Source: Salarchaeum japonicum
GTDB lineage: Archaea; Halobacteriota; Halobacteria; Halobacteriales; Halobacteriaceae
Assembly (NCBI RefSeq): GCF_049705945.1
Contig: NZ_JBNAMV010000004.1
Span: 831,097 to 855,096 of the forward strand
Length of the DNA: 24,000 nucleotides
Reading direction: 5' to 3'
Position numbers and translations under genes: made by a program. The first letter of the stretch is position 1. Every line of letters starts with the position of its first letter. Under the pieces are notes generated by a model. That model ran no database searches, was not told the DNA's origin, and worked only from the letters and a program-made list of their open reading frames with translations. This document shows, in pieces, positions 1,707-19,531 of the stretch.

Positions 1707-2186
1707 ATGCCTGACGGACGACTACGCCGGGACGCGTCGCCATACCTCACGTCGCTGGACGGGAGCGCGGCGGAGCGCGTCACCGCGATGGAGTGGGGTC
1801 GCCACCTCGGCCGCGCGTTCGGCGCGTCCGGCGCTATCAGCGCGCTGCGCTACTACGAGGAGGTCGGCTGGGTGAGCGAGACGGTGAAGGAGACGATGGC
1901 CGACTACGTTCGCGGCCTCCCGCTGGACGCGCTTGAGTCCGACCCCGACTACGACCCCGAGTTGAGCACCGAGCTCGACGACCTCGACGACTCGCCGTTC
2001 GACGCGCACGCGAAATCACTGGAGTACGTCGCGGCTATCGCGAACGACAACATTACCCATCAGCTCGCGACGATTTCGGGGAGCGCGGCCGCCCGGGAGG
2101 CCGCCGCCGCGGCCGGCGAGTTCCAGGAGGAGATTCCGGAGCCCGCGCAGGCCGCCGCGCGCGACGACGATGAGGACGAAGAGTAG
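1707..2186 (+). CDS. Stand-alone archaellum ArlD/ArlE (FlaD/E)-domain protein, 159 aa
   Basis: Residues about 10-110 (SPYLTSL...AMEWGRHL...GAISALRYYEEVGWVSETVKETM...AHAKSLEYV) parallel the C-terminal domain of the 7263-8228 product (SPYLNAL...LMQWVAML...GALKTIDYYAQIDWISPSVKRQL...AHSESFEHI). Acidic tail. The stop lies 3 nt from the arlJ stop. Confidence 0.7.
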   Translation: MPDGRLRRDASPYLTSLDGSAAERVTAMEWGRHLGRAFGASGAISALRYYEEVGWVSETVKETMADYVRGLPLDALESDPDYDPELSTELDDLDDSPFDAHAKSLEYVAAIANDNITHQLATISGSAAAREAAAAAGEFQEEIPEPAQAAARDDDEDEE

Positions 2187-6360: not shown

Positions 6361-6816
6361 CTACACGTAGATGGTCACGGTCTCCTCGTCACCGACGACG
6401 TGCACCGAGATGGTGTGTTCGCCGGCGTCGAGGGGGTACGAGAGGGTGAGGCGAAGGATTTCGCCGGTCGCCCACACGTCGCCCGTCGCGTTGTCGGGCC
6501 TGGAGAGGGCGTCCACCGTCGCGTACTGACCATCAATGAATACGTCTATTTGGGACGTCTGGGCGTATAAGTCCTTTTGCCCGGTGTTCTTGACGAGGAG
6601 CGTGACGTTCCCCGTGGAGTCGTTGTAGAACGCGTCGCTTCCGGTGTCGCCGACGATGTCCACGTCGGTCTCTATCTTGTCGGCGGCGGCGAGCCCCGAC
6701 CCTTCGAGGGTCTGGTCGAGGTCGACGACGCTCGCGGTGAGCGTGGACGCGACCGTCGCCGCGACCATCAGGGACGCGATGAAGATGATGAGTTTGTCGA
6801 CGGAGACGCTCGCCAT
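6361..6816 (-). CDS. arlG: Archaellum stator/periplasmic protein ArlG (FlaG), 151 aa
   Basis: N-terminal hydrophobic helix (MASVSVDKLIIFIASLMVAATVA) followed by a beta-rich domain containing VTLLVKNTG. Its start codon overlaps the arlF stop by 1 nt. Confidence 0.8.
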   Translation of the reverse strand: MASVSVDKLIIFIASLMVAATVASTLTASVVDLDQTLEGSGLAAADKIETDVDIVGDTGSDAFYNDSTGNVTLLVKNTGQKDLYAQTSQIDVFIDGQYATVDALSRPDNATGDVWATGEILRLTLSYPLDAGEHTISVHVVGDEETVTIYV

Positions 6817-7256
6817 CAGGACACCACCGTCACGTTGTTCGTCCCCGCGCTCACCGCGTGCTCGGTCACGACGACAACCCGTTTGGGCTCGTCCGCTGTC
6901 GATAGCGTGAACGTGAGTGTCTCACCGGGCGCCCAGACGGTGCGTGCGCTCGCTCCCTCGACGGCCGTCTCGGGGTTCGTGAAGGCGCCGTCGACGAGTA
7001 GGTCGGTGTCGGTCACGTGCAGGCTGGTCGTGCCCGTGTTGGAGACGTGAACGGTGAGCTGGTCCGAGGTGTTGTTGTAGGTCACGCTGTCGAGCGCGAT
7101 ATCGGTATTTCCGGCGTCCAGCGCGCGGTTCTCCTGTGCGCTCATCGACTCGGAGACGTCCTCGAAGCCGGCCTGCGCCGCGGGAACGACGACGCCCACG
7201 ACCATGAACGCCGCAACGAACAGAATCGCGGCTGCGCCGTTCGTACTGAACCCCAT
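6816..7256 (-). CDS. arlF: Archaellum stator/S-layer-contact protein ArlF (FlaF), 146 aa
   Basis: N-terminal TM helix followed by a beta-sandwich-type domain (LTVHVSNTGTTSL, LLVDG). Canonical position upstream of arlG. Confidence 0.8.
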   Translation of the reverse strand: MGFSTNGAAAILFVAAFMVVGVVVPAAQAGFEDVSESMSAQENRALDAGNTDIALDSVTYNNTSDQLTVHVSNTGTTSLHVTDTDLLVDGAFTNPETAVEGASARTVWAPGETLTFTLSTADEPKRVVVVTEHAVSAGTNNVTVVS

Positions 7257-7262
7257 GAACTG

Positions 7263-8228
7263 CTACGTCCCCGCGAGCTCCGTCTGCTGTGCCAGTTTCT
7301 GGATGTGTTCGAAACTCTCGCTGTGCGCTTCCACGGACAGTTCGCTCGGCGGCCGGGACGGCTGGTCCTCGTCGATGTCGTGCGCGCCCGACAGCACCGT
7401 CTCCAGTTGGCGCTTCACGGACGGACTGATCCAGTCGATCTGAGCGTAGTAGTCGATGGTTTTCAGCGCGCCCGCCGGTCCCGCGGTGTCGACGAGCATC
7501 GCCACCCACTGCATCAGCACCACGTCAGTCGCGTACGTCGGCGCGAGCGCGTTCAGGTAGGGCGAGTCGCCGGACTGGGACGCGGACACCGGCCGCGCCG
7601 GTGTATCCGCGGGCGTCTCGGGTTCGTCGGGTTCGTCTTCCTCGGCGTCCTCGTCGAGGTTCTGCTTGAGGTCCGCGAAGCTGACGACATCCTCGTCGTC
7701 CTCGTCTTCCGAGTCGTCAGCGTCCGCGTCAGCGGTAGTGTGGCGTTCGTGGCCGATGTCGTCGGACGCCTCGCCGGACATCACGCCGTACGTCTCGTCG
7801 TCGGGCGCGGCCGCCTCGCGCTCGTCGTCCGACGAGAAGGGATTGATGTCGTCGGTGAGCCGGTCGTACACGCCGAGAAGAATCGTGTTCGTCTCCTCGA
7901 TATCGTCAAGGCGGCCGTCCATCGACTCCTGGGTGTTCTCCAGGGATTCGATGGCGGACTCGTTGGTGTCGACGCGGTTTCGGACTTCGTCGAGGTTGTA
8001 CTGGAGTTCCTCGACCGCGTCACCCACATCTCCCTCGAACGCCTCCGTCGAAATCCGGGGCTGCTGCGGTTCGGAGACCGCTTCTTCTTCCTCCGTGTCC
8101 TCCCCAGCGTCAGCGTCCGCGTCCGCCTGTTCCGTCTCGTCCTCGGCGTCCTGTTCGTCCTCTCGTGACTGATTGTTTGGAACGAGGGAGTCGAGGCCGA
8201 GTTCCCGCATCACGTCGCCGAGGTTCAT
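7263..8228 (-). CDS. arlCE: Archaellum ArlC + ArlD/E-domain fusion (FlaCE-like), 321 aa
   Basis: The N-terminal half has a coiled-coil FlaC-like segment (VDTNESAIESLENTQESMDGRLDDIEETNTILLGVYDRLT). A long acidic linker leads to a C-terminal FlaD/E domain (SPYLNALAPTYATDVVLMQWVAML...IDYYAQIDWIS). First gene of the operon. Confidence 0.7.
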   Translation of the reverse strand: MNLGDVMRELGLDSLVPNNQSREDEQDAEDETEQADADADAGEDTEEEEAVSEPQQPRISTEAFEGDVGDAVEELQYNLDEVRNRVDTNESAIESLENTQESMDGRLDDIEETNTILLGVYDRLTDDINPFSSDDEREAAAPDDETYGVMSGEASDDIGHERHTTADADADDSEDEDDEDVVSFADLKQNLDEDAEEDEPDEPETPADTPARPVSASQSGDSPYLNALAPTYATDVVLMQWVAMLVDTAGPAGALKTIDYYAQIDWISPSVKRQLETVLSGAHDIDEDQPSRPPSELSVEAHSESFEHIQKLAQQTELAGT

Positions 8229-8282
8229 TCGTAACTCGGTTCGGTCCCGGCGAAGAAGAACCTTTGGGCAGGGAGACTGGGG

Positions 8283-8288
8283 TTTAAG
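8283..8288 (+). promoter_or_regulatory. TATA-like box TTTAAG in the 96-nt divergent spacer between arlCE-like and the 8325 gene
   Basis: This is the only AT-rich element in the spacer. It lies about 40 nt upstream of ATG 8325 and about 57 nt upstream of the arlCE-like start on the other strand. GGTTTAAGCC is nearly palindromic. Confidence 0.35.
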
Positions 8289-8324
8289 CCGCTCTGGGGC
8301 GACGAGTGGACAGAGACGCTACAG

Positions 8325-8936
8325 ATGGCTGACGAGAACGCGGTACACGAGGCGGTCGTCGACCTTCTCTCTCGGTGGGAGAGTCCGGTGGCGAACAAGC
8401 GCGTGTTCAATCAGCGACTCGCAGCCCACCTCGAATCGGAACTCGACGACCGCGGCCTGGACGTGTCCGTCGAGCGGACGGCGCAGGGCCCGTGCGACAT
8501 CACCGTAGACAGTGTAGGCGTGCTCGTGTTCACGGACTTCAGCCACGCCGACTCAGTGGAGTTACACGCACAGAGCGACCGCATCCAGGAGCGCGTCGAC
8601 ACGCTCGTCGTGTTCGGCTACCTGCTCCCGGAGCGCGACCTCGACCGATGGCGGATGGGCGAGTTCAAGTACGAAGCGATGGGGCTGGATATGGAGGAAG
8701 TGACGTTCCTGCGGCGCAACCCCACCACGGAAACCGTGGAAGAGCACGGTTGGCCGAGCCGCGTGTGGCGGTTCGCCGTCGCGGTCGTCGCGCTTCTCAG
8801 CATCGTCATTGGCGTCGAACTTGCCATCCTCTACCAGGCGTTCGGCGGCGCCGCGCCGAGCCCCGAGCTCACGCTCGCCGCGGTGGTCGTGCTGTCCGCG
8901 TTGCTCGTCTTCCTCTACGAGCGCATCCCCCTCTAG
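8325..8936 (+). CDS. Hypothetical protein: about 140-aa soluble N-terminal domain plus two C-terminal TM helices (203 aa)
   Basis: Strong GC3 in this frame. TM segments VWRFAVAVVALLSIVIGVELAILY and LTLAAVVVLSALLVFLY. No motif I recognise. Confidence 0.65.
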   Translation: MADENAVHEAVVDLLSRWESPVANKRVFNQRLAAHLESELDDRGLDVSVERTAQGPCDITVDSVGVLVFTDFSHADSVELHAQSDRIQERVDTLVVFGYLLPERDLDRWRMGEFKYEAMGLDMEEVTFLRRNPTTETVEEHGWPSRVWRFAVAVVALLSIVIGVELAILYQAFGGAAPSPELTLAAVVVLSALLVFLYERIPL

Positions 8937-9385
8937 AGGTCGAGGTCGGACTCCGCGAGCAGCACGCGCAGCACGTCCTCCGGCGGTTCCGAGGCGTCGA
9001 TGCGGCGGGCGTACCAGCGGAGCGTGTGCTCGAACGCGTCCACGACGTTGTTCGACGCGAACCGCTCGTCCGCGACGCCGCGGTCGGTCTTCACCGCGAG
9101 CGCCGCCGCGTACTTCTCTGGTACCGCCGATAGCGCCGCGGCAGCGGACGGCGTCTCAGCGGGCGTCGGGGAGTCGTCGGCCTCCGCTGGGAGGTCGGCG
9201 GTGGGTCGCGGGTCGGGTGACTGTCCCTCGCTCGTGGAGACGACGTACCGGCCGTCCCCGATTTCCTGGACTTCGTCGCGGTCCTCCACATCCAGGTCGT
9301 CGGGGGAGAGCACGCCGTCTTCGGCGAGGTCCTCGGGTGGCACGTCCTCCACGTCCTCGACCGTGGGGTTCGAATCGTCGGCCAT
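8933..9385 (-). CDS. Hypothetical acidic protein, 150 aa
   Basis: I start it at MADDSNPTVEDVED... (ATG = complement of 9383-9385) because an ATTATG box lies 27 nt upstream. The track ORF extends to 10195, but that extension is antisense to better genes. The N-terminal half is D/E/P-rich and probably disordered; the C-terminal about 60 aa looks folded. Confidence 0.6.
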   Translation of the reverse strand: MADDSNPTVEDVEDVPPEDLAEDGVLSPDDLDVEDRDEVQEIGDGRYVVSTSEGQSPDPRPTADLPAEADDSPTPAETPSAAAALSAVPEKYAAALAVKTDRGVADERFASNNVVDAFEHTLRWYARRIDASEPPEDVLRVLLAESDLDL

Positions 9386-9409
9386 ACGCGTGGAGTGGAG
9401 CGCGAGCGA

Positions 9410-9415
9410 CATAAT
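9410..9415 (-). promoter_or_regulatory. TATA-like box (ATTATG on minus strand) 27 nt upstream of start 9385
   Basis: AT-rich hexamer at the canonical spacing for a leaderless mRNA. Confidence 0.4.
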
Positions 9416-9460
9416 CCCGTGGGCGAAGCATTGAGGACGCGCGCGCTCGTCCAGTCGAGT

Positions 9461-9640
9461 ATGGTCTCGCTCTCGGTCGTCGCGGCCGGCCTCGGGCTGG
9501 TCGTCGCGGCGGCGGCGTTCCTCCGGCTCGCGGACAGCGACGAGACCGACGCCGTCCACCTCGTGGTTCTCGAATACGGGTTCGCGTTCGCGCTCCTCAT
9601 CGCGGGGTTCGGCCTCATCGTCATCGAGATGCTGGCGTGA
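9461..9640 (+). CDS. Small two-TM membrane protein (59 aa from ATG 9461; a GTG at 9395 would give 81 aa)
   Basis: MVSLSVVAAGLGLVVAAAAFL...VVLEYGFAFALLIAGFGLIVIEMLA. Two hydrophobic helices and high GC3. Confidence 0.5.
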   Translation: MVSLSVVAAGLGLVVAAAAFLRLADSDETDAVHLVVLEYGFAFALLIAGFGLIVIEMLA

Positions 9641-9679
9641 GGCAACAACGCTTTTCTCGGTAAGGCGCCGCGTACTGGT

Positions 9680-10243
9680 ATGAGACTCGACCGACGAGCG
9701 TTCGCCAGCGCACTCGGTGTAGCAGGCGCGAGCGCGCTTGCGGGCTGTTCGTCGCTTACCGGCGACGACGGGCGGACCGAACGGACGGTGACGGCGACTC
9801 AACCGAACGCGGACGGGGAGGGAACGGTCGCGGAACTCCGCTACCTCATCGAGACGGAACAGGGGGACAACGACTTCGCGATACCCCTCACGCGGATGGC
9901 GACCGGGACGGCGAGCAACGACGAGGGATCGTTCACGTACATCACTGCGACGTACGACTCGACAGCGGGCGACCGCGGCGAGTTCATTTCCGAGGTGGGC
10001 GTGTTCGCGCGGAGCTACGCGACCTACGTCGGTGCGGGCGGAGAAGCGGCGACGGACTTCACAGTCACCGTCGAGGACAGGTATGACGGACAGCCCGCCT
10101 CGTTCGGTATCGCGCGGGAGTGGGCCCGACAATACAACGCGGGCGAGATATCCGGAAACCAGTACATCGGGGAGATCGTGTCGACGTTCGAACAACCGAC
10201 GACTACGAGCGAGAACATCTCACTTACGGGCGATAAGCTATAA
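9680..10243 (+). CDS. Predicted Tat-exported lipoprotein, 187 aa, unknown function
   Basis: Twin-arginine motif (DRRAF), a hydrophobic region, and the lipobox LAGC at residues 20-23. The mature part is acidic and Thr/Gly-rich. Confidence 0.7.
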   Translation: MRLDRRAFASALGVAGASALAGCSSLTGDDGRTERTVTATQPNADGEGTVAELRYLIETEQGDNDFAIPLTRMATGTASNDEGSFTYITATYDSTAGDRGEFISEVGVFARSYATYVGAGGEAATDFTVTVEDRYDGQPASFGIAREWARQYNAGEISGNQYIGEIVSTFEQPTTTSENISLTGDKL

Positions 10244-10269
10244 CCGTCCGTAGCCGCCAGTTTCATACG

Positions 10270-10419
10270 ATGAACGTATCGTTCGAGAACGTGCTAGATT
10301 GGGGTCTGGACCGCGCAGTCCCGGGCTGCCGCGCGCATCTCCCGCTCCGAGTGGCCCCGATGCTGCTCGTCGGGATGATCCTGCTCGTTCTCGGTGTGTT
10401 GAGCACGACGGCGTTCTGA
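10270..10419 (+). CDS. Possible unannotated 49-aa single-TM micro-protein
   Basis: Below the ORF-track size cutoff. My translation: MNVSFENVLDWGLDRAVPGCRAHLPLRVAPMLLVGMILLVLGVLSTTAF. GC3 is mostly G/C. The stop lies 3 nt before ATG 10423 of the next membrane protein. Confidence 0.3.
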   Translation: MNVSFENVLDWGLDRAVPGCRAHLPLRVAPMLLVGMILLVLGVLSTTAF

Positions 10420-10422
10420 TTC

Positions 10423-11169
10423 ATGTCGTCCGAAACCCCGAGCACGAAGGAAATCGAGGCCGTGAGCTGGCTCGTCTCGCGCCAGATCTGGGCGAGCACG
10501 GTTGTGCTCACGGGCGTCCTGGTCGTGTTCGTCGCCATCACGGGAGTCGTGCTCTACGACGCACCGCTGCTGCGTGGGTTCCAGCGGAGCGTGTCGAACT
10601 CCATCGGCGTACTCTCCATCTTCTTGGGGGCTCGCGCGCTCGCGTTCGTTCTCGCGCAGGCACGGCGGGACGCCGTGGTCGCTCGCGGCGACCTCTCCAT
10701 CGCGAACGACGCGTCCCTGATCGGAATGACGACCGTCGCCGCGTTCTCCGTCATCGGCGTCATCGCGGCCGGCGTCGCCCTTCCGCTCCTCCTCTCGACG
10801 ACTGAGGCGTTCACGTACCTCGCAATCGCCATCTCGGTATTCGTCGTGCCCGTGAGTTACGTGGTGCTCGTCTACCAGCTCGGCCAGCGCACCGCGACCG
10901 ACCGCTACGAACGCGGATTCCACGTTCTGCCCGCCGTCTGGCACTACCTCTGGACGCTTCCCGTAATCGTGCTCGCGTGGTATCTCGCGCTCGGCGTGGA
11001 CCCCGTCCCAGTGACCGGCGAAGCCGCCCAGTTGTTCAACGTACGAACGGTGTTCGTGGACGTGTGGACGCTGCTGTACGTCGCCATCGGCACTCCGACC
11101 CTCCTCGTCTTCCTCTACCCGTTCCGCTGGTACGCGGAGCGCGTCGTCCGCGTCGTCGTTCCAACATAG
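10423..11169 (+). CDS. Polytopic membrane protein (about 6 TM), 248 aa, unknown function
   Basis: About six hydrophobic segments and strong GC3. The antisense 307-aa ORF (10294-11217) is R/D/E/H-rich, as expected for an artefact. Confidence 0.7.
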   Translation: MSSETPSTKEIEAVSWLVSRQIWASTVVLTGVLVVFVAITGVVLYDAPLLRGFQRSVSNSIGVLSIFLGARALAFVLAQARRDAVVARGDLSIANDASLIGMTTVAAFSVIGVIAAGVALPLLLSTTEAFTYLAIAISVFVVPVSYVVLVYQLGQRTATDRYERGFHVLPAVWHYLWTLPVIVLAWYLALGVDPVPVTGEAAQLFNVRTVFVDVWTLLYVAIGTPTLLVFLYPFRWYAERVVRVVVPT

Positions 11170-11183
11170 CCCACGGCCCTTGA

Positions 11184-11191
11184 TATTTAAG
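11184..11191 (+). promoter_or_regulatory. TATA box TATTTAAG about 30 nt upstream of ATG 11217
   Basis: The best TATA match in the window, at the correct spacing. Confidence 0.5.
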
Positions 11192-11216
11192 ACGGCGGAC
11201 GGTGTAGCGAGCGCCA

Positions 11217-11570
11217 ATGGCCGAAACGAAAGACTACCTGCCCGACAGGCTCCCCGGCTTCCGCGACATCAAACCCCGTAACCAGGCCGCGCTCGTCATC
11301 CTCTCGGCGTTCGTCGTCAGCATCGCCGTGGCCGCGGTCGCGACCGTCGCCCAAATTCAGCCCGAACAAGTCATCCCCGTGCTCGGCACGGTCGTCTTCC
11401 TGCTCTTCCTCGGCGCCAGCCTCGTCGTCTTCCGCGCGATGTTCGTCGCCGCCCAGAAAGCCGACGGCAGCGTCCAGAGCGCGTTCACCCACCCAGCGTT
11501 CGCCCTACTCTTCCTGCTCGTCGTCTTCGCCGGCGCGCTCTTCCTCGGCTTCCTCAACCAATACCTCTAG
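11217..11570 (+). CDS. Small 3-TM membrane protein, 117 aa
   Basis: Three hydrophobic helices, high GC3, and its own TATA box. Confidence 0.65.
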   Translation: MAETKDYLPDRLPGFRDIKPRNQAALVILSAFVVSIAVAAVATVAQIQPEQVIPVLGTVVFLLFLGASLVVFRAMFVAAQKADGSVQSAFTHPAFALLFLLVVFAGALFLGFLNQYL

Positions 11571-11927
11571 CCAGCGAAAAGGCCACTCGGTTGCTACCCG
11601 GTACGTGCGCCATGGATAGCATCACAGCCTAGAACGAGTTCGAGTGGGTGCGGGAGGGGCGTCACGGGGACGAATACTACTGAAAACGAGACAGCGGACG
11701 CGTTCTAGAGTAGATGGGTACAGTAAGGCGCAACTACCACAAGCCCGCTCTGTGTGGCAAAGACGCGTGTGCCCCGGAGTATGGAATTTGTACAGAACTA
11801 CAGCGATAGGCGACTGGCGAGAAATGCCGGACCGTGAGCGCGAATGTGGCGATACACGCGACGCTGATTGAACGAGCCAGACTACCCAGCGAGTGGGAAT
11901 GGACGCGTCGCTATCCGGTTTGTGTCC

Positions 11928-11937
11928 GAAAGAAAAA
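11928..11937 (-). terminator. Oligo-T terminator candidate (GGTTTTTCTTTC on minus strand) 30 nt after the archaellin stop
   Basis: A T-run containing TTTCTTTC. The same 8-mer follows the ArlG-like gene and the pilin-like gene. Confidence 0.45.
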
Positions 11938-11967
11938 CCGCGGCGTGTTCGGAAGTGAAAGTCCGAC

Positions 11968-12594
11968 TTAGAGACGGACAGCTTCGCCTGGCGAAGCGTC
12001 AGCGAGCGAGGCCGGGACGTTCATCTGGAACACCGTCTCGGCACCCGAGGACGTTACGAACGTAAGGTGAACAGTTTCACCGCCCTCAAGTACGCTGACT
12101 GGCTGCTCAGTAAGATTAATCGTAACCTGGAAGCGATCCGTTTGAGAATTGAGCACCGGTTTGGTCTCACCCTCGTCCGTCACTGCGCTGACCGTGAAGT
12201 TCTCGTTAGTAAGGGTCGTAGCACCGCCCGGTCCCGTCCAGCGAATCGTAGTGTCATTTACATTAATAGGATCGGAACCTGGCGCAAGACTGACCGAAAT
12301 TGTGGTCTCATTAATGACTTTACTGGAATTTTCGTGGCCAGCGCTGGCAGGAAGTTTACTCGCGTTCTGGACAACACCGGTCGCGGCACTCACGTCGAGC
12401 CGGTCCGTGACGCCGGACTGGGCGTCCTGGCTCGTGGATTGCGCGGATGTCTGAAGCATGCCTGCCGTGTTGATGAGGACGCCGGCCGCGAGTGCGGCGA
12501 CGAGGATCATTGCGATGAACACGACGAGCGTTTCGATACCGATCTGGCCCCGGTCTTTCTCGAAGTCGGGGCGGGGAATGCTGATGTCTACCAT
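11968..12594 (-). CDS. Archaellin (ArlA/ArlB = FlaA/FlaB family), 208-aa precursor
   Basis: Class III signal peptide and conserved N-terminus: [45 protein letters not shown]. Internal and C-terminal blocks match haloarchaeal archaellins ([45 protein letters not shown], ending AVRL). Six N-X-S/T sequons. Confidence 0.9.
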
Positions 12595-12786
12595 GATTGG
12601 ATTGGGATGGTTTGTTGGCGGTCCGTCAGCGACGCAGTCACACAGCCTGCGCGCCGCCTGTAACACCACAAACACGGGACATACACATAAACTCATTGGC
12701 TAAATCAGGGGTCGAGACCCGGTTTTTCGAGACAGCTGGCCGACAGTTTAATGAGTGGTTTAGGGCCGTGCTCGCAGAGCGCGAGT

Positions 12787-12807: not shown

Positions 12808-14124
12808 CTACGCGACGCCGATCGTGGTGTCGGTATCGACGATGACGACGGTGCCGGATTCGTCGCGGAGATACCCGATGTCGCCGGTGGTTCCCTCCAT
12901 ATACCGTAGCGGGGCCGGGTCGCCATCGTTCGAGGCGTACTCGACATAGATTATTTCGGGTGTGCCGTCATCGTCGACATCAGCCGCGCCCATTCCAGTT
13001 CCGCTCTCCGGTTGTTCCTGAACGCCGTTCGGTTGGTAGGAAGAGAGCGACCCCGACGTGTATTCGAGGACAGAGATGTATCCAGAACTGTCGCGGTAAG
13101 GGACGCCGACGTTCCCGTCGCCGTCGAAGTCAGCGGGCGTTCCGACACCAAGCGACGAGGAGAGACTCTTGGACGAGGAATGGACGGTCCCGTCGTCGTC
13201 CAAGAACGTGAGCCCGGGGTTCGACGTGACGAACACGATTTCGTCAGCGGAGTCCCCATCGAAGTCCGTGATGCCGACGATGCCGTTCGCCTGTGCGTTC
13301 GACTGGTCGGCGACGGTGAACACGTCTCGGCTGTCAAGCGTGACACCGTAGATGCCGGAGTTGTTGCCGAAGAAGATGGAGCGGTCGGAGCCGTTCCAAC
13401 TGCCGACGGCGAGCCGCGTGCCCGCGTCCGAGCTGGTGCTGGTGAACGGTTGTCCAGGAAGCGTGACGTTGGTGCCGTTACCGTAGGCGATCTTCAGAGC
13501 ACCGGACTGGTTGACGTACGGGATGTCGGCCGCGCCGTCCTCGTCAAAGTCCTGTGACGGCCCGAGTCCTTCCGGAACCATTTCGTTGAGATACGTGGTG
13601 ACGACTTGCGTGTCGGCGTCATACAGTTTCACTGACCCGGAGAACACCACGTCACCGCTAAGATCCGCAGCGCTTCCGTAGAACGGGAAGGTGAGGAGTG
13701 AGCGGCGTTCGTTGGCGCGAACGACGACGCGGTGTGCGCCGTCGTCGAGGGTGGTGTCGAGGGTGATTCGGGCGACGTTGCCGGGCCGCCAGTAGTCGCC
13801 ATCGAGGACGGTGATGTCGGTCTCTTGCACGAATTCGCCGTCGATGAGGGTGTCGATGCGGTTGGGGTCGGTGGGGAGGACGTTCGCGCCGGTGTTTTTC
13901 ACGAGGAGGGTGACGGTCGTGTTTGAGTCGTTGTAGATGGCGCTGGAGCCGGAGTCGCTGATGATGGCGAAGTCGGTGTCGAGTGTCTCCCCGTAGTCCT
14001 CGCCGGTGTCGCGGATGGCGGTCGAGACGTCGTTGGCGACGCCGGTGGCGGTGCCGGCGAGCATCGCGGCGACGGCGACGGCGGCGATGAAGAGGATGAC
14101 GTGGGAGGCGGAGACGCTAGCCAT
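12808..14124 (-). CDS. ArlG (FlaG)-like N-terminal domain fused to an FG-GAP/VCBS-type repeat (beta-propeller-like) domain, 438 aa
   Basis: The first about 145 aa are collinear with the ArlG of 6361-6816 (MASVS.., TD..I..D.GS.A.YNDS...VTLLVKNTG, ID..IDG, W..G...R.TL...LD.G.H). The C-terminal about 290 aa contain at least 5 DxDxDG-type FG-GAP-like repeats (DFDEDGAADIPYV, GSWNGSDRSIFFG, DFDGDSADEIVFV, DFDGDGNVGVPY, DVDDDGTPEIIYV). Confidence 0.75.
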   Translation of the reverse strand: MASVSASHVILFIAAVAVAAMLAGTATGVANDVSTAIRDTGEDYGETLDTDFAIISDSGSSAIYNDSNTTVTLLVKNTGANVLPTDPNRIDTLIDGEFVQETDITVLDGDYWRPGNVARITLDTTLDDGAHRVVVRANERRSLLTFPFYGSAADLSGDVVFSGSVKLYDADTQVVTTYLNEMVPEGLGPSQDFDEDGAADIPYVNQSGALKIAYGNGTNVTLPGQPFTSTSSDAGTRLAVGSWNGSDRSIFFGNNSGIYGVTLDSRDVFTVADQSNAQANGIVGITDFDGDSADEIVFVTSNPGLTFLDDDGTVHSSSKSLSSSLGVGTPADFDGDGNVGVPYRDSSGYISVLEYTSGSLSSYQPNGVQEQPESGTGMGAADVDDDGTPEIIYVEYASNDGDPAPLRYMEGTTGDIGYLRDESGTVVIVDTDTTIGVA

Positions 14125-14152
14125 CGATTAGGAGTGCTTCGTCGCACGGACG

Positions 14153-14158
14153 GATAAG
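14153..14158 (-). promoter_or_regulatory. TATA-like box (CTTATC on minus strand) about 31 nt upstream of start 14124
   Basis: AT-rich hexamer in the 57-nt spacer. The same GCTTATC motif occurs upstream of the pirin gene. Confidence 0.4.
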
Positions 14159-14181
14159 CGTTGAGGCAGCCAGGAAGCCGG

Positions 14182-14694
14182 TTATTCGGGTGTGTTGACG
14201 GTGAGCGGGCCGCCGCAGCGGCCGCACGCGTACTGCTCTGGGTTGCGGACGAGACGGGATTCGCGGTAGCGGGGGAGACGGTGGTCGCAGTCGGTGCAGA
14301 CGACCCACCAAGTGGGCGGCGTGAATCGCTCGCAGTGGGTCGCGGTGTTGAGTCGGTCGGCGAGTCGCTGGAATCGCGGGCCGTGGCTCCCGTCGCCGTG
14401 TTCGGTGACGAGGTGTGCGTGCGCGAGTTCGTGGCGGACCGTGCTGGCGACGGCGTGCCAGCCCCGGTTCTCGAAGAGCCGCCACGCGAGCCGAACCTCG
14501 ACGGGCGTGTCGTCGCGGTAGCGGAGGACGCCGGCGCGTCGTTTCGCGCGCGTGCTCACGGACCACGCGAGGTCGGAGACCTGGACGGAGAGGTCGTGGG
14601 CGGAGACGAGGTCGCGTGCGTACACGCGGACGGCGGCGAGGAACTCCTCGTGGCTGCAGGGCGGCGTGACCGCGTACCACTCGACGTCGTTCAC
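14182..14694 (-). CDS. SprT-like zinc metalloprotease with C-terminal zinc ribbon, 170 aa (GTG start)
   Basis: HELAHAH (HExxH) motif preceded by a typical SprT-family N-terminal region. C-terminal CTDC...CGRC forms a four-Cys ribbon. Confidence 0.7.
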   Translation of the reverse strand: MNDVEWYAVTPPCSHEEFLAAVRVYARDLVSAHDLSVQVSDLAWSVSTRAKRRAGVLRYRDDTPVEVRLAWRLFENRGWHAVASTVRHELAHAHLVTEHGDGSHGPRFQRLADRLNTATHCERFTPPTWWVVCTDCDHRLPRYRESRLVRNPEQYACGRCGGPLTVNTPE

Positions 14695-18370: not shown

Positions 18371-18491
18371 ATGCTTTGGCTCCCACTATATGGTAAGCAC
18401 GCGGGAAAAACCACGACACCACCTGACCGCCACCGGATTTTCCGGCCTACCTCACTATGGGTGTTGTGGTGCTCTCGGTGCACACCCAATC

Positions 18492-19019
18492 ATGAAACTC
18501 GAAATACCGTCCATAGACGCCGACGAACGTGGCGTCAGCCCCGTCATCGGAGTTATACTGATGGTCGCCATCACTGTCATCCTGGCAGCCGTCATCGGTG
18601 CGTTCGTCCTCAACCTCGGCAACGACATCCAGAACACCGCACCCACCGCATCCATCGGCGCCACTGACGCCGGTCAACAGCTGAATAGCACGGGTGATCA
18701 GACTGTCCTGTACATTAATCACCAGCAGGGCGATTCCATCAAGCAGTCCAACCTCCGTATCACGGTCAGTAACGAAAGCGGAGCCCAGATTGCGGACATC
18801 ACGTGGAACACCACCAAGGGAAGCTGGGACGCCGGTACCAACAGTAATCTGAACGTCTCTAGCGGCGCGCTGAGCGACAGTTCCTTCGATGCAGGGGACC
18901 AGCTCACCCTCAAAGAAGTGTCGGGCACTAACGTGACCGCGGGGCAGACGCTCACCGTGCAGATTATCGACACGGAATCCGGTTCGACCGTCGCGACGCC
19001 GACCGTCCGCGTCGAATAA
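18492..19019 (+). CDS. Archaeal type IV pilin-like protein (class III signal peptide, PilA-type hydrophobic domain), 175 aa
   Basis: MKLEIPSIDADERG/VSPVIGVILMVAITVILAAVIGAFVLNLG is the conserved haloarchaeal pilin N-terminus. Five N-X-S/T sequons. GC is lower than in the flanks. Confidence 0.8.
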   Translation: MKLEIPSIDADERGVSPVIGVILMVAITVILAAVIGAFVLNLGNDIQNTAPTASIGATDAGQQLNSTGDQTVLYINHQQGDSIKQSNLRITVSNESGAQIADITWNTTKGSWDAGTNSNLNVSSGALSDSSFDAGDQLTLKEVSGTNVTAGQTLTVQIIDTESGSTVATPTVRVE

Positions 19020-19168: not shown

Positions 19169-19243
19169 TGGGCCCTGGCGGATTTGAACCACCGCTCACC
19201 CGGTTATGAGCCGGGCGCTTTAACCAGACTAAGCTAAGGGCCC
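19169..19243 (-). tRNA. tRNA with anticodon CAT (elongator Met, or Ile2 if C34 is agmatinylated), 75 nt, no intron, CCA not encoded
   Basis: Hand-folded cloverleaf: acceptor GGGCCCT/AGGGCCC, D stem GCTT/AAGC, anticodon stem CCCGG/CCGGG with loop CTCATAA, T arm GGTGG-TTCAAAT-CCGCC, discriminator A. It is not an initiator, which would need A1:U72 and three G:C pairs next to the loop. Confidence 0.85.
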
Positions 19244-19270
19244 TCGCGTCTACGTAACCGAGTCCGCGAC

Positions 19271-19276
19271 TTTAGA
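19271..19276 (-). promoter_or_regulatory. TATA-like box (TCTAAA on minus strand) about 30 nt upstream of the tRNA(CAT) 5' end
   Basis: AT-rich hexamer at canonical spacing. Confidence 0.4.
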
Positions 19277-19350
19277 CTACCGGGACGCGGCGAGCCGACG
19301 CTGCCGGCGATTGCGGGGTTTGCGGGCCGATATCCACAAGCGTGTCCGTG

Positions 19351-19367
19351 GAAACGTCCGGACGGAG
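19351..19367 (-). repeat. 17-nt exact copy of the tRNA-Arg 3' end (last 13 nt of the tRNA plus 4 nt of trailer)
   Basis: gaaacgtccggacggag occurs at 19351-19367 and again at 19455-19471, overlapping tRNA-Arg positions 61-73. Confidence 0.8.
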
Positions 19368-19458
19368 TCCCCGCGAGCCAGCGGCGAGCGGGGGCAGGCC
19401 GGGCGTTTCGAACGAGCGAACGGCGAGCGGGACGCTCGCCGTGTAGCGATGTGAGAAA

Positions 19459-19531
19459 CGTCCGGACGGAGATTTGAACTCCGGTCCCTGGCTCCGCAAG
19501 CCAAGAGGATAGTCCACTACCCTACCCGGAC
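19459..19531 (-). tRNA. tRNA-Arg (anticodon GCG), 73 nt, no intron, CCA not encoded
   Basis: Hand-folded: acceptor GTCCGGG/TCCGGAC, anticodon stem TTGGC/GCCAG with loop TTGCGGA (U33, GCG, G37), T arm CGGAG-TTCAAAT-CTCCG, discriminator G. Confidence 0.85.

What the first reader, a model, noticed from the sequence alone, without database searches (positions are those of the whole stretch)
12808..14124. ArlG (FlaG) paralogue fused to a roughly 290-aa FG-GAP/VCBS-type repeat domain, directly upstream of the archaellin gene
The window has a canonical arlG inside the arl operon (6361-6816) and also this second, much longer copy.
- **N-terminal domain:** the first about 145 aa are collinear with the canonical ArlG (MASVS start, hydrophobic helix, TD..I..D.GS.A.YNDS...VTLLVKNTG, ID..IDG, W..G...R.TL...LD.G.H).
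- **C-terminal domain:** the rest carries at least five integrin-like DxDxDG calcium-loop repeats (DFDEDGAADIPYV, GSWNGSDRSIFFG, DFDGDSADEIVFV, DFDGDGNVGVPY, DVDDDGTPEIIYV) and 7 N-glycosylation sequons.
- **Context:** it has its own TATA-like box and T-rich terminator and sits next to the only archaellin gene in the window.
- **Background:** published structural work on the FlaG-FlaF complex describes ArlG as a periplasmic filament-forming stator element capped by ArlF, which contacts the S-layer. I am not aware of a characterised ArlG carrying a propeller head.
- **Hypothesis:** it is an alternative stator or anchor for the archaellum motor, or an adhesive/sensor head displayed on an ArlG-like stalk.
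Basis: partly seen in the sequence, partly recalled or inferred. Interest (0 to 1): 0.75.

Follow-up and report, generated by a model that had tools for sequence, protein, structure and literature searches.

The report
ArlG-like stalk with swappable propeller head
A salt-loving archaeon carries, next to its only swimming-filament gene, an extra copy of a motor-anchoring protein (ArlG) fused to a six-bladed, calcium-loop propeller "head". That head has been exchanged as a cassette between near-identical strains, which points to an uncharacterised envelope-gripping or adhesive accessory.

Summary
ORF 12808-14124 (-) encodes 438 aa.

- **N-terminal domain:** residues 1-146 score 159 bits on NCBIfam's ArlG equivalog model (cutoff 110). 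They are 40% identical to the canonical ArlG at 6361-6816.
- **C-terminal domain:** residues ~152-438 match FG-GAP_3. AlphaFold2 gives a confident model (pLDDT 92, pTM 0.90). I read it as a closed six-bladed propeller from the strand pattern and the best Foldseek matches. It has four strict DxDxDG loops.
- **Not an assembly artefact:** Salarchaeum, Halarchaeum and some Halobacterium species all carry the fusion.
- **Context:** in Salarchaeum and Halarchaeum the gene always sits directly upstream of the single archaellin gene, and the normal arlF and arlG are kept.

New findings:

- The propeller also occurs on ArlF-like N-domains and, far more often, on type IV pilin-like N-termini.
- ArlG-like N-domains also carry LamG, PQQ-propeller or Ig-like heads in other haloarchaea.
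- A contig ~96% identical to the window keeps the ArlG domain at 93-100% identity. Its whole propeller is replaced by a ~44%-identical allele, with breakpoints at the domain border and the stop codon.

Best reading (about 0.4): an accessory cap or anchor of the ArlG/ArlF stator whose lectin-like head grips a variable envelope partner. Main rival (0.35): a motor-independent surface binding protein. Function is untested. This is a new variant of a known kind.

The parts
12808..14124 (-). Whole gene, 438 aa: ArlG-like N-domain plus six-bladed FG-GAP-type propeller. It is 100% identical to an NCBI 'hypothetical protein' of Salarchaeum japonicum.
14035..14124 (-). aa 1-30. N-terminal hydrophobic helix 'MASVSASHVILFIAAVAVAAMLAGTATGVA'. 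It is the same type as in canonical ArlG. No K/R-G/A class III (prepilin peptidase) site precedes it.
   Evidence: Sequence read directly; helix 6-22 in the AF2 model, at low pLDDT; contrast with the archaellin '[10 protein letters not shown]' and the pilin-type relatives 'RG[IVL]SPVVG'
13681..14124 (-). aa 1-148. ArlG-type domain: helix plus a beta-rich soluble domain. It carries the family motifs SD.GS..Y, T.TLLVKNTG, DG, W.PG and R.
   Evidence: NF052591 159.4 bits against cutoff 110; 40% identity to the canonical ArlG; invariant residues in the alignment of 9 orthologues; beta strands 52-148 at pLDDT 72-85
12811..13671 (-). aa 152-438. Six-bladed beta-propeller head. This is also the segment replaced as a cassette in the near-identical contig L069.
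   Evidence: AF2 pLDDT 91.9, pTM 0.90; Foldseek best TMq 0.59-0.63 to six-bladed YWTD propellers; FG-GAP_3; CRTAC1 profile hit E = 1.2e-5; cassette swap
13525..13551 (-). aa 192-200, DFDEDGAAD. Integrin-type D-x-D-x-D-G-x-x-D loop (blade 2).
   Evidence: D192, D194, D196 and G197 are invariant in orthologues
13240..13266 (-). aa 287-295, DFDGDSADE loop (blade 4).
   Evidence: D287 is invariant across 23 and 25 family members
13105..13131 (-). aa 332-340, DFDGDGNVG loop (blade 5).
12955..12981 (-). aa 382-390, DVDDDGTPE loop (blade 6).
12811..12825 (-). aa 434-438, C-terminal 'TIGVA'. The family-wide G-[VT]-[AVT] ending is inferred to be the strand that closes the propeller ring against the first blade ('velcro').
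   Evidence: G436 is invariant in 23 sequences; a terminal strand is present in the model; ring closure is an inference, because the coordinates could not be inspected
14152..14159 (-). GCTTATCC, a TATA-like element at -35..-28 from the ATG. It would give a leaderless or near-leaderless mRNA.
   Evidence: identical in Salarchaeum sp. III; GTTATCC in both Halarchaeum species. Promoter function is inferred, not shown.
11968..12594 (-). Context: the single archaellin gene (208 aa from M at 12594). It lies 213 bp downstream on the same strand and has its own conserved upstream region.
6361..7256 (-). Context: canonical arlF (6816-7256) and arlG (6361-6816) in the arl operon, the presumed partners of the ArlG-like domain.
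   Evidence: ArlF 144.6 bits, ArlG 166.9 bits

Best explanation
**What it is**
The gene encodes a membrane-anchored envelope protein built from two modules.
- Module 1 is a conserved ArlG-type N-terminal helix plus beta-sandwich, the 'machine-facing' stalk.
- Module 2 is a six-bladed FG-GAP-type propeller with three to four integrin-like acidic (Ca2+-type) loops, the 'ligand-facing' head.

**Proposed mechanism (inferred)**
- The ArlG-like domain uses the same edge contacts by which ArlG polymerises and binds ArlF. This lets it join the pseudo-periplasmic ArlG/ArlF stator of the archaellum.
- It probably joins as a terminal (cap) subunit, because a 290-aa head follows directly after its last strand.
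- The propeller grips a strain-variable envelope partner, most plausibly the S-layer glycoprotein or its glycans. This gives an extra or alternative anchor for the motor.
- The head evolves as an exchangeable cassette because its partner varies between strains.

**Shown**
- Domain identities, the predicted propeller fold, conserved adjacency to the archaellin gene in two genera, retention of canonical arlF and arlG, cassette replacement, and purifying selection on both modules.

**Inferred**
- Membrane and pseudo-periplasmic location, contact with ArlG/ArlF, Ca2+ binding, and the identity of the ligand.
For: - **ArlG character:** the N-domain passes the ArlG equivalog cutoff in this protein (159 bits) and in all orthologues tested (129-159 bits). 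It keeps the ArlG core motifs.
- **Strong constraint on the N-domain:** it is 93-100% identical between the window and L069, omega 0.10. That is more than a passive spacer would need.
- **Conserved gene order:** fusion gene then archaellin, same strand, in 4 Salarchaeum loci (window, L070, L069, L008/L003) and 2 Halarchaeum species. This holds although the proteins are only 40% identical. It also holds although the upstream neighbour differs (SprT versus an ABC transporter) and the region between archaellin and arlCDE is rearranged.
- **An addition, not a replacement:** canonical arlF and arlG are retained in every case.
- **ArlF precedent:** ArlF, the stator subunit reported to bind the S-layer (Banerjee 2015, PMC4425475; review PMC8978795), also occurs fused to the same propeller. 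This fits the head acting in envelope attachment.
- **A binding-type head:** confident six-bladed propeller with D-x-D-x-D-G loops. Its structural neighbours include sugar-binding propeller lectins (PLL/PHL, AAL) and receptor propellers.
- **Cassette behaviour:** the whole head is swapped between ~96%-identical genomes, with omega 0.09 within allele types. The head is therefore functional and tracks something variable.
Against: - The Halobacterium orthologues (L012, L005/L011) and all ArlF-type fusions examined (L066-L068) are not near arl genes.
- At least 66 of 125 other propeller-bearing representatives have type IV pilin-like signals rather than ArlF/G domains.
- ArlG-like domains carry unrelated heads in orphan loci. 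The stalk may simply be a general display scaffold.
- The archaellin and arl genes stay ~96% identical where the head is swapped, so the head does not co-vary with archaellum parts.
- The fusion gene and the archaellin gene appear to have separate promoters.
- No experiment or complex prediction supports contact with ArlG or ArlF.
- The ArlG-filament model itself rests on in vitro data (Umrekar 2021, PMC8667602).
Confidence: 0.4

Rival explanations
1. It is a motor-independent envelope or surface binding protein (adhesin or lectin). The ArlG-derived helix and beta-sandwich serve only as a membrane anchor and stalk, possibly self-oligomerising, that displays a Ca2+-dependent propeller. Its ligand would be external or envelope-borne: glycans, surfaces, other cells, or a target used by viruses. 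Adjacency to the archaellin gene would reflect the place where arlG was duplicated, or loose co-regulation of motility and attachment.
For: - Most family members are orphans. The Halobacterium-type fusion, the ArlF-type fusions and the LamG, PQQ and BIg heads all sit away from arl genes.
- The same head sits mostly on type IV pilin-like N-termini. This recalls the use of class III signals to anchor binding proteins in archaeal envelopes (Sulfolobus bindosome; my own knowledge).
- Cassette replacement and deep allelic lineages (dS 0.7-1.3 in the head against 0.1-0.25 in the stalk) are typical of exposed surface proteins.
- Separate promoters are likely.
Against: - The fusion-archaellin pairing is conserved across two genera while the other neighbours change.
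- The N-domain stays above the ArlG equivalog cutoff and is much more conserved than a spacer needs to be.
- A monomer anchored by its helix, with about 150 + 290 aa of ectodomain, would probably sit under the S-layer rather than outside it (inference).
Confidence: 0.35
2. It is a minor structural subunit of the archaellum filament itself, at the tip, base or adaptor position. Its N-terminal helix would insert into the filament core like an archaellin, and the propeller would act as a tip adhesin. This would be analogous to propeller-bearing pilus tip proteins such as bacterial PilY1.
For: - The gene lies directly upstream of the only archaellin gene.
- The N-helix resembles archaellin helices. 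The A1 profile hits archaellin 9eq7 over residues 4-66, E = 4e-4.
- Pilin-type relatives with the same head would fit a tip-pilin role.
Against: - There is no class III signal or prepilin-peptidase site.
- The TIGR02537 archaellin N-terminal model matches the neighbouring archaellin but not this protein.
- The best family match is ArlG, not archaellin: BLASTP to the archaellin covers only 35 aa, E = 0.001.
- The Halobacterium orthologues are unlinked to archaellin genes.
Confidence: 0.1
3. It is an envelope sensor or regulator. The propeller would sense Ca2+/Mg2+ or a ligand and modulate archaellum assembly or rotation through the ArlG-like domain.
For: - Acidic Ca2+-type loops are present.
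- The gene lies next to the archaellin gene.
- The Foldseek hits include the periplasmic propellers of a sugar-sensing hybrid two-component system, 4a2l.
Against: - There is no cytoplasmic domain or signalling module. The protein has only about 5 residues before the helix.
- There are no linked regulatory genes.
- Cassette swapping is unusual for an ion sensor.
Confidence: 0.05
4. It is an artefact: two genes joined by a sequencing or assembly error, or a decaying pseudogene.
For: None found.
Against: - A continuous ORF of the same architecture and length (418-438 aa) occurs in independent assemblies and genera.
- omega is 0.09-0.43 in both domains.
- The domain linker is conserved ('F.F' at aa 146).
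Confidence: 0.01

Closest known systems
ArlG (FlaG), archaellum stator protein (NCBIfam NF052591, Pfam PF01917; S. acidocaldarius and P. furiosus work: Tsai 2020, Umrekar 2021 PMC8667602)
   Same: - The N-terminal 146 aa match the model end to end above its cutoff.
- Same 'MASVS' start and uncleaved-type hydrophobic helix.
- Same core motifs.
- 40% identical to the canonical ArlG of this genome.
   Different: - Three times longer, with a 290-aa propeller after the ArlG domain.
- It is a second copy outside the arlF-arlG-arlH position.
- In an NJ tree without bootstrap support, its N-domain groups with other head-bearing or orphan ArlG paralogues rather than with arl-cluster ArlGs.
- Filament formation and ArlF binding are untested.
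ArlF (FlaF), S-layer-binding beta-sandwich of the archaellum (Banerjee 2015, PMC4425475)
   Same: - Same superfamily and the same topology (helix plus beta-sandwich).
- The proposed role, attachment to the envelope at the end of the ArlG stalk, is the role proposed here for the head.
- ArlF-like N-domains carry the same propeller in other haloarchaea.
   Different: - This protein scores only 55 bits on the ArlF model (cutoff 110).
- ArlF binds through its sandwich, not through an added domain.
FG-GAP / VCBS beta-propellers (integrin alpha head, CRTAC1 9etn, ITFG2; Pfam PF13517, PF01839)
   Same: - Repeat signature [h-h-G]-x-D-x-D-x-D-G-x-x-[DE]-h-h-h-h.
- Pfam match above the gathering cutoff.
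- Profile hit to CRTAC1, E = 1.2e-5.
- Propeller fold.
   Different: - Six blades inferred, against seven in integrin alpha and ITFG2.
- The best structural superpositions are with six-bladed YWTD propellers (TMq 0.59-0.63).
- Sequence identity to any solved structure is 16% or less.
- No single-sequence PDB hit.
Haloarchaeal type IV pilin-like proteins with the same propeller (Pilin_N PF07790, DUF7261, DUF7289; e.g. Haloarcula montana 'type IV pilin' P0010)
   Same: - Homologous propeller: 30-35% identity, same length, same G-V-A ending.
- Same overall size, about 420-440 aa.
   Different: - Their N-termini carry a class III signal (RG|[IVL]SPVVG) and a short pilin domain, not an ArlG domain.
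- The example examined is not next to archaellum or pilus genes.
Bacterial PilY1 (type IV pilus-associated protein with a C-terminal Ca2+-binding propeller). Analogy from my own knowledge; Makarova 2016 (PMC4858521) proposes PilY-like tip adhesins for archaeal pili.
   Same: Concept only: a propeller with a Ca2+ site attached to a type IV filament machine and used for attachment.
   Different: - No detectable homology.
- PilY1 is not a pilin or ArlG fusion.
- The location and role of the present protein are unknown.

Membership tests
ArlG (archaellum stator protein; NF052591 / PF01917) | Sequence matches the curated family model above its cutoff over the full model length | tested here: met
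   159.4 bits against cutoff 110, model positions 1-148 of 148; PF01917 78.8 bits against 29.5
ArlG (archaellum stator protein; NF052591 / PF01917) | N-terminal hydrophobic helix without an archaellin-type class III signal or prepilin-peptidase site | tested here: met
   Sequence 'MASVSASHVILFIAAVAVAAML' has no K/R-G/A motif. TIGR02537 hits the neighbouring archaellin but not this protein.
ArlG (archaellum stator protein; NF052591 / PF01917) | Single-domain protein of about 150 aa encoded between arlF and arlH in the arl operon, one copy per genome | tested here: not met
   It is 438 aa and lies 6 kb from the operon. The operon slot is filled by the canonical arlG at 6361-6816. Makarova 2016 describes FlaG as single-copy.
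ArlG (archaellum stator protein; NF052591 / PF01917) | Archaellin-type beta-sandwich soluble domain | tested here: inconclusive
   AF2 shows strands over residues 52-148 at pLDDT 72-85. Foldseek hits were dominated by the propeller, and no ArlG or ArlF structure appeared in the top 50. The PDB sequence and profile searches did not reach 5TUH-type entries.
ArlG (archaellum stator protein; NF052591 / PF01917) | Forms filaments, binds ArlF, and is required for archaellation and motility | not testable with these tools
   Needs multimer modelling, biochemistry and genetics.
FG-GAP / VCBS beta-propeller | Pfam FG-GAP-type repeat match above the gathering cutoff | tested here: met
   PF13517 38.1 bits against 26.9, 3 stretches; profile hit to CRTAC1, E = 1.2e-5
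FG-GAP / VCBS beta-propeller | Repeats fold into a closed beta-propeller | tested here: met
   AF2 on a 114-sequence alignment gives pLDDT 91.9, pTM 0.90, with six groups of 3-4 strands. Foldseek gives 142 PDB hits at E <= 1e-3; the 50 listed are essentially all beta-propeller folds, best TMq 0.63. Blade count and ring closure are inferred from the strand pattern and the best matches; the coordinates were not inspected.
FG-GAP / VCBS beta-propeller | Integrin-type D-x-D-x-D-G-x-x-D/E Ca2+ loops | tested here: met
   Loops start at aa 192, 287, 332 and 382. Three have an acidic residue at position 9. Metal binding itself is not testable here.
Archaellin / type IV pilin | Class III signal peptide, cleaved, with the helix incorporated in the filament core | tested here: not met
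   No cleavage motif. There is no TIGR02537 match and no Pilin_N match. BLASTP to the archaellin covers only 35 aa of the helix.

The most novel reading that the evidence does not exclude
Head-bearing ArlG and ArlF paralogues would form a modular adaptor system. Their conserved archaellin-fold stalks would plug into the archaellum stator. Exchangeable heads (FG-GAP propeller, PQQ propeller, LamG lectin) would match the motor's anchorage to the hypervariable S-layer or glycan coat of each strain. Whole heads would be replaced by recombination when the envelope changes. This would be the first known mechanism that adapts a rotary motor's stator to a variable cell wall in archaea.
Probability: 0.25. 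Interest if true: 0.8.

Novelty: new variant of a known kind. Interest (0 to 1): 0.6.

Why it matters
- **The anchoring problem.** How the archaellum motor is held against the cell envelope is one of the least settled parts of the machine. The ArlF/ArlG stator model rests mainly on Sulfolobus and Pyrococcus proteins in vitro, and nothing comparable is known for haloarchaea. A natural ArlG (and ArlF) variant with a dedicated binding head gives a direct handle. Its ligand could be identified with recombinant propeller. Its presence at the motor could be tested by cryo-ET and pull-downs.
- **A natural experiment.** The cassette swap between near-identical strains can be used to find what the head co-varies with.
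- **Value even if the protein is unrelated to the motor.** The data would still define a widespread, unnamed haloarchaeal surface module. It is a six-bladed FG-GAP-like propeller ending in G-V-A, displayed on archaellin- or pilin-type anchors.

Tried and rejected
- **PDB sequence searches.** Single-sequence searches with either domain found nothing, even at E <= 10 for the N-domain and E <= 1 for the C-domain. Only the profile search gave weak hits, so ArlG interface residues (S. acidocaldarius Y68 / P. furiosus Y75) could not be mapped.
- **Virus and plasmid searches.** The viral contig scan could not run because the alignment was too divergent. tblastn of the propeller against phage genomes found no match. 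Against plasmids it found one weak Halarchaeum PKD-domain protein. There is therefore no sign that the head is virus-borne.
- **Regulatory scans.** The sigma-70 and hairpin-terminator scan is not suited to archaea and found no terminator.
- **Literature.** There are no papers combining FG-GAP with archaell*, or Salarchaeum with archaell*. Umrekar 2021 and Makarova 2016 mention no ArlG fusion.
- **Genome scan limits.** The GTDB scan used only N-terminal patterns. It cannot give the full distribution of ArlF-type or distant ArlG-type fusions.
- **Readings rejected.**
  - Assembly artefact: rejected on conservation and omega < 1.
  - True archaellin or pilin: rejected because there is no class III signal.
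  - Replacement of the canonical ArlG: rejected because arlG is retained in every locus.
Full report
**1. The observation**

The window is from Salarchaeum japonicum: the encoded protein is 100% identical to an NCBI 'hypothetical protein' of that species.

- The ORF at 12808-14124 (- strand) is intact, starts with ATG and encodes 438 aa.
- On the same strand lie, in order of transcription:
  - a SprT-like gene (14182-14694);
  - this gene;
  - 213 bp downstream, the only archaellin gene. The ORF is 11968-12696, but the class III signal [10 protein letters not shown] puts the real start at 12594;
  - a block of small unknown genes;
  - arlCDE (7263-8228), arlF (6816-7256), arlG (6361-6816), arlH, arlI and arlJ.
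- Residues 1-146 match NCBIfam's ArlG equivalog model end to end at 159.4 bits (cutoff 110; the canonical ArlG scores 166.9). The ArlF model gives 55 bits.
- The two ArlG-type sequences of the window are 40% identical over 139 aa, E = 4e-27.
- The rest matches Pfam FG-GAP_3 above its cutoff.

**2. Structure**

- A full-length AlphaFold2 model built on 23 sequences reached pLDDT 77.6. The helix region was poorly defined, the ArlG-type strands scored 72-85 and the C-terminal part 85-92.
- A model of residues 152-438 on a 114-sequence alignment reached pLDDT 91.9 and pTM 0.90.
- Its strands fall into six groups of three to four. The best Foldseek superpositions are with six-bladed YWTD propellers (LRP2, LRP4; TMq 0.59-0.63). 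Seven-bladed lectins and ITFG2 score 0.45-0.56.
- Each repeat reads [h-h-G]-x-D-x-D-x-D-G-x-x-[D/E]-h-h-h-h.
- The extreme C-terminus 'TIGVA' has the form of the h-h-G strand that blade 1 lacks, and G436 is invariant. I infer it closes the ring. I could not inspect coordinates, so the blade count and the closure are inferences.
- No solved structure is close: sequence identity is 16% or less, and there is no single-sequence PDB hit. The nearest by profile is the FG-GAP/VCBS propeller of CRTAC1, E = 1.2e-5.

**3. A real, conserved gene**

- Full-length homologues of 418-438 aa occur in a second S. japonicum genome (89%), Salarchaeum sp. III (58%), and Halarchaeum acidiphilum and H. rubridurum (40-42%).
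- They also occur in Halobacterium sp. KA-4 and in several MAGs (33-36%).
- All orthologues tested pass the ArlG cutoff (129-159 bits).
- An exhaustive HMM search of 1.84 billion representatives found about 11 clusters at 50% identity with this ArlG-type architecture.
- dN/dS is 0.09-0.43 in both domains.
- A mis-assembly or a pseudogene is excluded.

**4. Genomic context**

- In four Salarchaeum loci and two Halarchaeum species the gene lies directly upstream of the single archaellin gene on the same strand. The canonical arlF and arlG lie 5-6 kb further on.
- This order persists although the upstream neighbour differs (SprT in Salarchaeum, an ABC transporter in Halarchaeum). It also persists although the genes between archaellin and arlCDE are rearranged.
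- In the Halobacterium lineage the orthologue lies between an RNase H-like gene and a malic enzyme gene. No arl gene lies within the flank held, up to 8 kb on each side.
- A TATA-like GCTTATCC at -35..-28 is conserved upstream of the gene in Salarchaeum, with GTTATCC in Halarchaeum. The archaellin has its own conserved upstream region. Separate transcription units are therefore likely.
- No hairpin terminator is present.

**5. The wider family changes the picture**

- **(a) ArlF-type fusions.** The same propeller is fused to ArlF-like N-domains ('MGF..S' starts, best BLAST hit to the window's ArlF). There are 9 such clusters among the top representatives, and 35 full-length relatives (clusters at 90% identity) were found in a dedicated search. 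Several are labelled 'flagellar protein FlaF' by JGI. The three with usable contigs are orphans.
- **(b) Pilin-type fusions.** Far more often the propeller follows a type IV pilin-like N-terminus. At least 66 of 125 other representatives have a class III signal. Examples carry Pilin_N, DUF7261 or DUF7289.
- **(c) Other heads on ArlG-like stalks.**
  - Laminin_G_3 in Natronoglomus (L031, 503 aa).
  - A PQQ_2 propeller in Natronosalvus (L046, 616 aa).
  - An Ig-like domain in Halomontanus (L049, 257 aa).
  - All three are orphan loci.
- **(d) A headless paralogue.** Halobacterium salinarum, H. bonnevillei and H. rubrum have a second, stand-alone ArlG paralogue. It ends exactly at the domain border (L044 'HFTFTTS*') and groups with the Halobacterium fusions.
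- In an NJ tree without bootstrap support, most head-bearing and orphan ArlG domains separate from the arl-cluster ArlGs.

**6. The head is a cassette**

- Contig L069 (metagenome ERZ508599) aligns with the window at 95.5% (16400->13472) and 96.4% (12820->2774) nucleotide identity.
- Inside the gene, amino-acid identity is 93-100% for residues 1-150.
- At about residue 150 it falls to 26-67% and stays there to the stop codon. The alignment then returns to ~96% through the archaellin and the arl operon.
- The L069 head resembles that of Salarchaeum sp. III (about 80-97% identical in windows).
- Synonymous divergence in the head is saturated between types (dS 1.3). It is several-fold higher than in the stalk even within a type (0.68 against 0.17; 1.25 against 0.17). 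omega within a type is 0.09.
- The propeller is therefore functional and old, and it is exchanged as a whole unit on a conserved stalk. This pattern is typical of proteins that bind a variable partner.

**7. Interpretation**

What is shown is a two-module envelope protein: a conserved ArlG-type stalk plus an exchangeable FG-GAP-type propeller head.

My best mechanistic reading (confidence about 0.4) is that, in Salarchaeum and Halarchaeum, the stalk joins the ArlG/ArlF stator. Those are the proteins thought to bridge the pseudo-periplasm and hold the motor to the S-layer (PMC8667602, PMC8978795, PMC4425475). It would probably join as a terminal subunit. The head would grip a strain-variable envelope component such as the S-layer glycoprotein or its glycans.

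- **Support:**
  - the preserved ArlG signature and the strong constraint on the stalk;
  - the conserved pairing with the archaellin gene;
  - the existence of ArlF-propeller fusions;
  - the lectin-like structural neighbours;
  - the cassette behaviour.
- **Against:**
  - the many orphan relatives;
  - the pilin-type majority;
  - the other heads on ArlG-like stalks;
  - the lack of co-variation with archaellum genes.

These counter-points favour the main rival (0.35): a motor-independent surface binding protein that merely reuses an archaellin-fold anchor. A filament tip or minor-subunit role (0.1) is disfavoured by the absence of a class III signal. A sensor role (0.05) is disfavoured by the lack of any signalling part.

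**8. Novelty**

- No publication in the searched library describes ArlG or ArlF with an added propeller.
- Database annotation is 'hypothetical protein' or plain 'FlaG/FlaF'.
- Both parts belong to known families, so this is a new variant of a known kind rather than a new kind of system.
- It is of real interest for the open question of how the archaellum is anchored in haloarchaea.

Noticed in passing
P0037, P0039, P0059, P0061, P0066, P0084, P0090, P0112, P0119; loci L066:10001-11236, L067:10001-11494, L068:10001-11260: A sister family has an ArlF-like N-domain ('MGF..S' start, best hit to the window's ArlF) fused to the same six-bladed propeller. A dedicated search found 35 full-length relatives (clusters at 90% identity), several labelled 'FlaF' by JGI. 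The three loci with context are not near arl genes. L067 has a cheC-like gene about 2 kb away and a PilB3/T2SSF pair about 6.5 kb away.
   Followed up: partly
L031:8001-9509, L046:8001-9848, L049:8001-8771: ArlG-like N-domains in Natrialbaceae carry other C-terminal heads. These are Laminin_G_3 (Natronoglomus, 503 aa), a PQQ_2 beta-propeller (Natronosalvus, 616 aa) and an Ig-like domain (Halomontanus, 257 aa). No arl genes were detected in the flanks.
   Followed up: partly
L044:8001-8462 (Halobacterium salinarum DSM 3754); also L024 and L034 at 8001-8459: A second, stand-alone ArlG paralogue of about 152 aa lies far from the arl cluster. It groups with the Halobacterium propeller fusions and stops exactly at the stalk/head border ('HFTFTTS*'). 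It looks like a headless version of the fusion.
   Followed up: partly
window 12595-12700, compared with L008 about 9400-9504: The region upstream of the archaellin start is almost identical between S. japonicum and Salarchaeum sp. III. It runs 'GATTTAGCCAATGAGTTTATGT...ACAGGCGGCGCGCAGGCTGTGTGACTGCGTCGCTGACGGACCGC'. The rest of the intergenic spacer has diverged. This suggests a promoter plus a conserved leader of about 90 nt with a possible regulatory role.
   Followed up: no
window 8229-11967: A block of small, mostly unannotated genes lies between the archaellin gene and arlCDE.
- It holds DUF7500 (about 150 aa at 8933-9385; the ORF listing over-extends it to 420 aa), a 187-aa gene at 9680-10243 (+) called DUF8159 in related loci, a 203-aa gene at 8325-8936 (+), and a gene of about 248 aa within 10294-11217 (-).
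- The block is conserved in Salarchaeum.
- It is partly conserved, with inversions, in Halarchaeum.
- These may be lineage-specific archaellum accessory genes.
   Followed up: no
window 1707-2186 (+): An extra 159-aa protein with an Arch_fla_DE domain (69 bits) is encoded convergently, just after arlJ. The same arrangement is seen at the end of the Halarchaeum locus L001.
   Followed up: no
window 18390-19019 (+) and 19169-19531 (-); L069:1-5700: A type IV pilin gene (Pilin_N, 84 bits) lies next to tRNA-Met and tRNA-Arg. In the ~96%-identical contig L069, the stretch upstream of its pilin gene instead holds an integrase, a PadR regulator and small unknown genes. This suggests an integrated element that differs between strains.
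   Followed up: no
window 11968-12696 (-): The longest archaellin ORF starts at 12696 ('MSLCVCPVF...'). The class III signal peptide and the orthologues (203-208 aa) indicate the true start is the ATG at 12594.
   Followed up: partly
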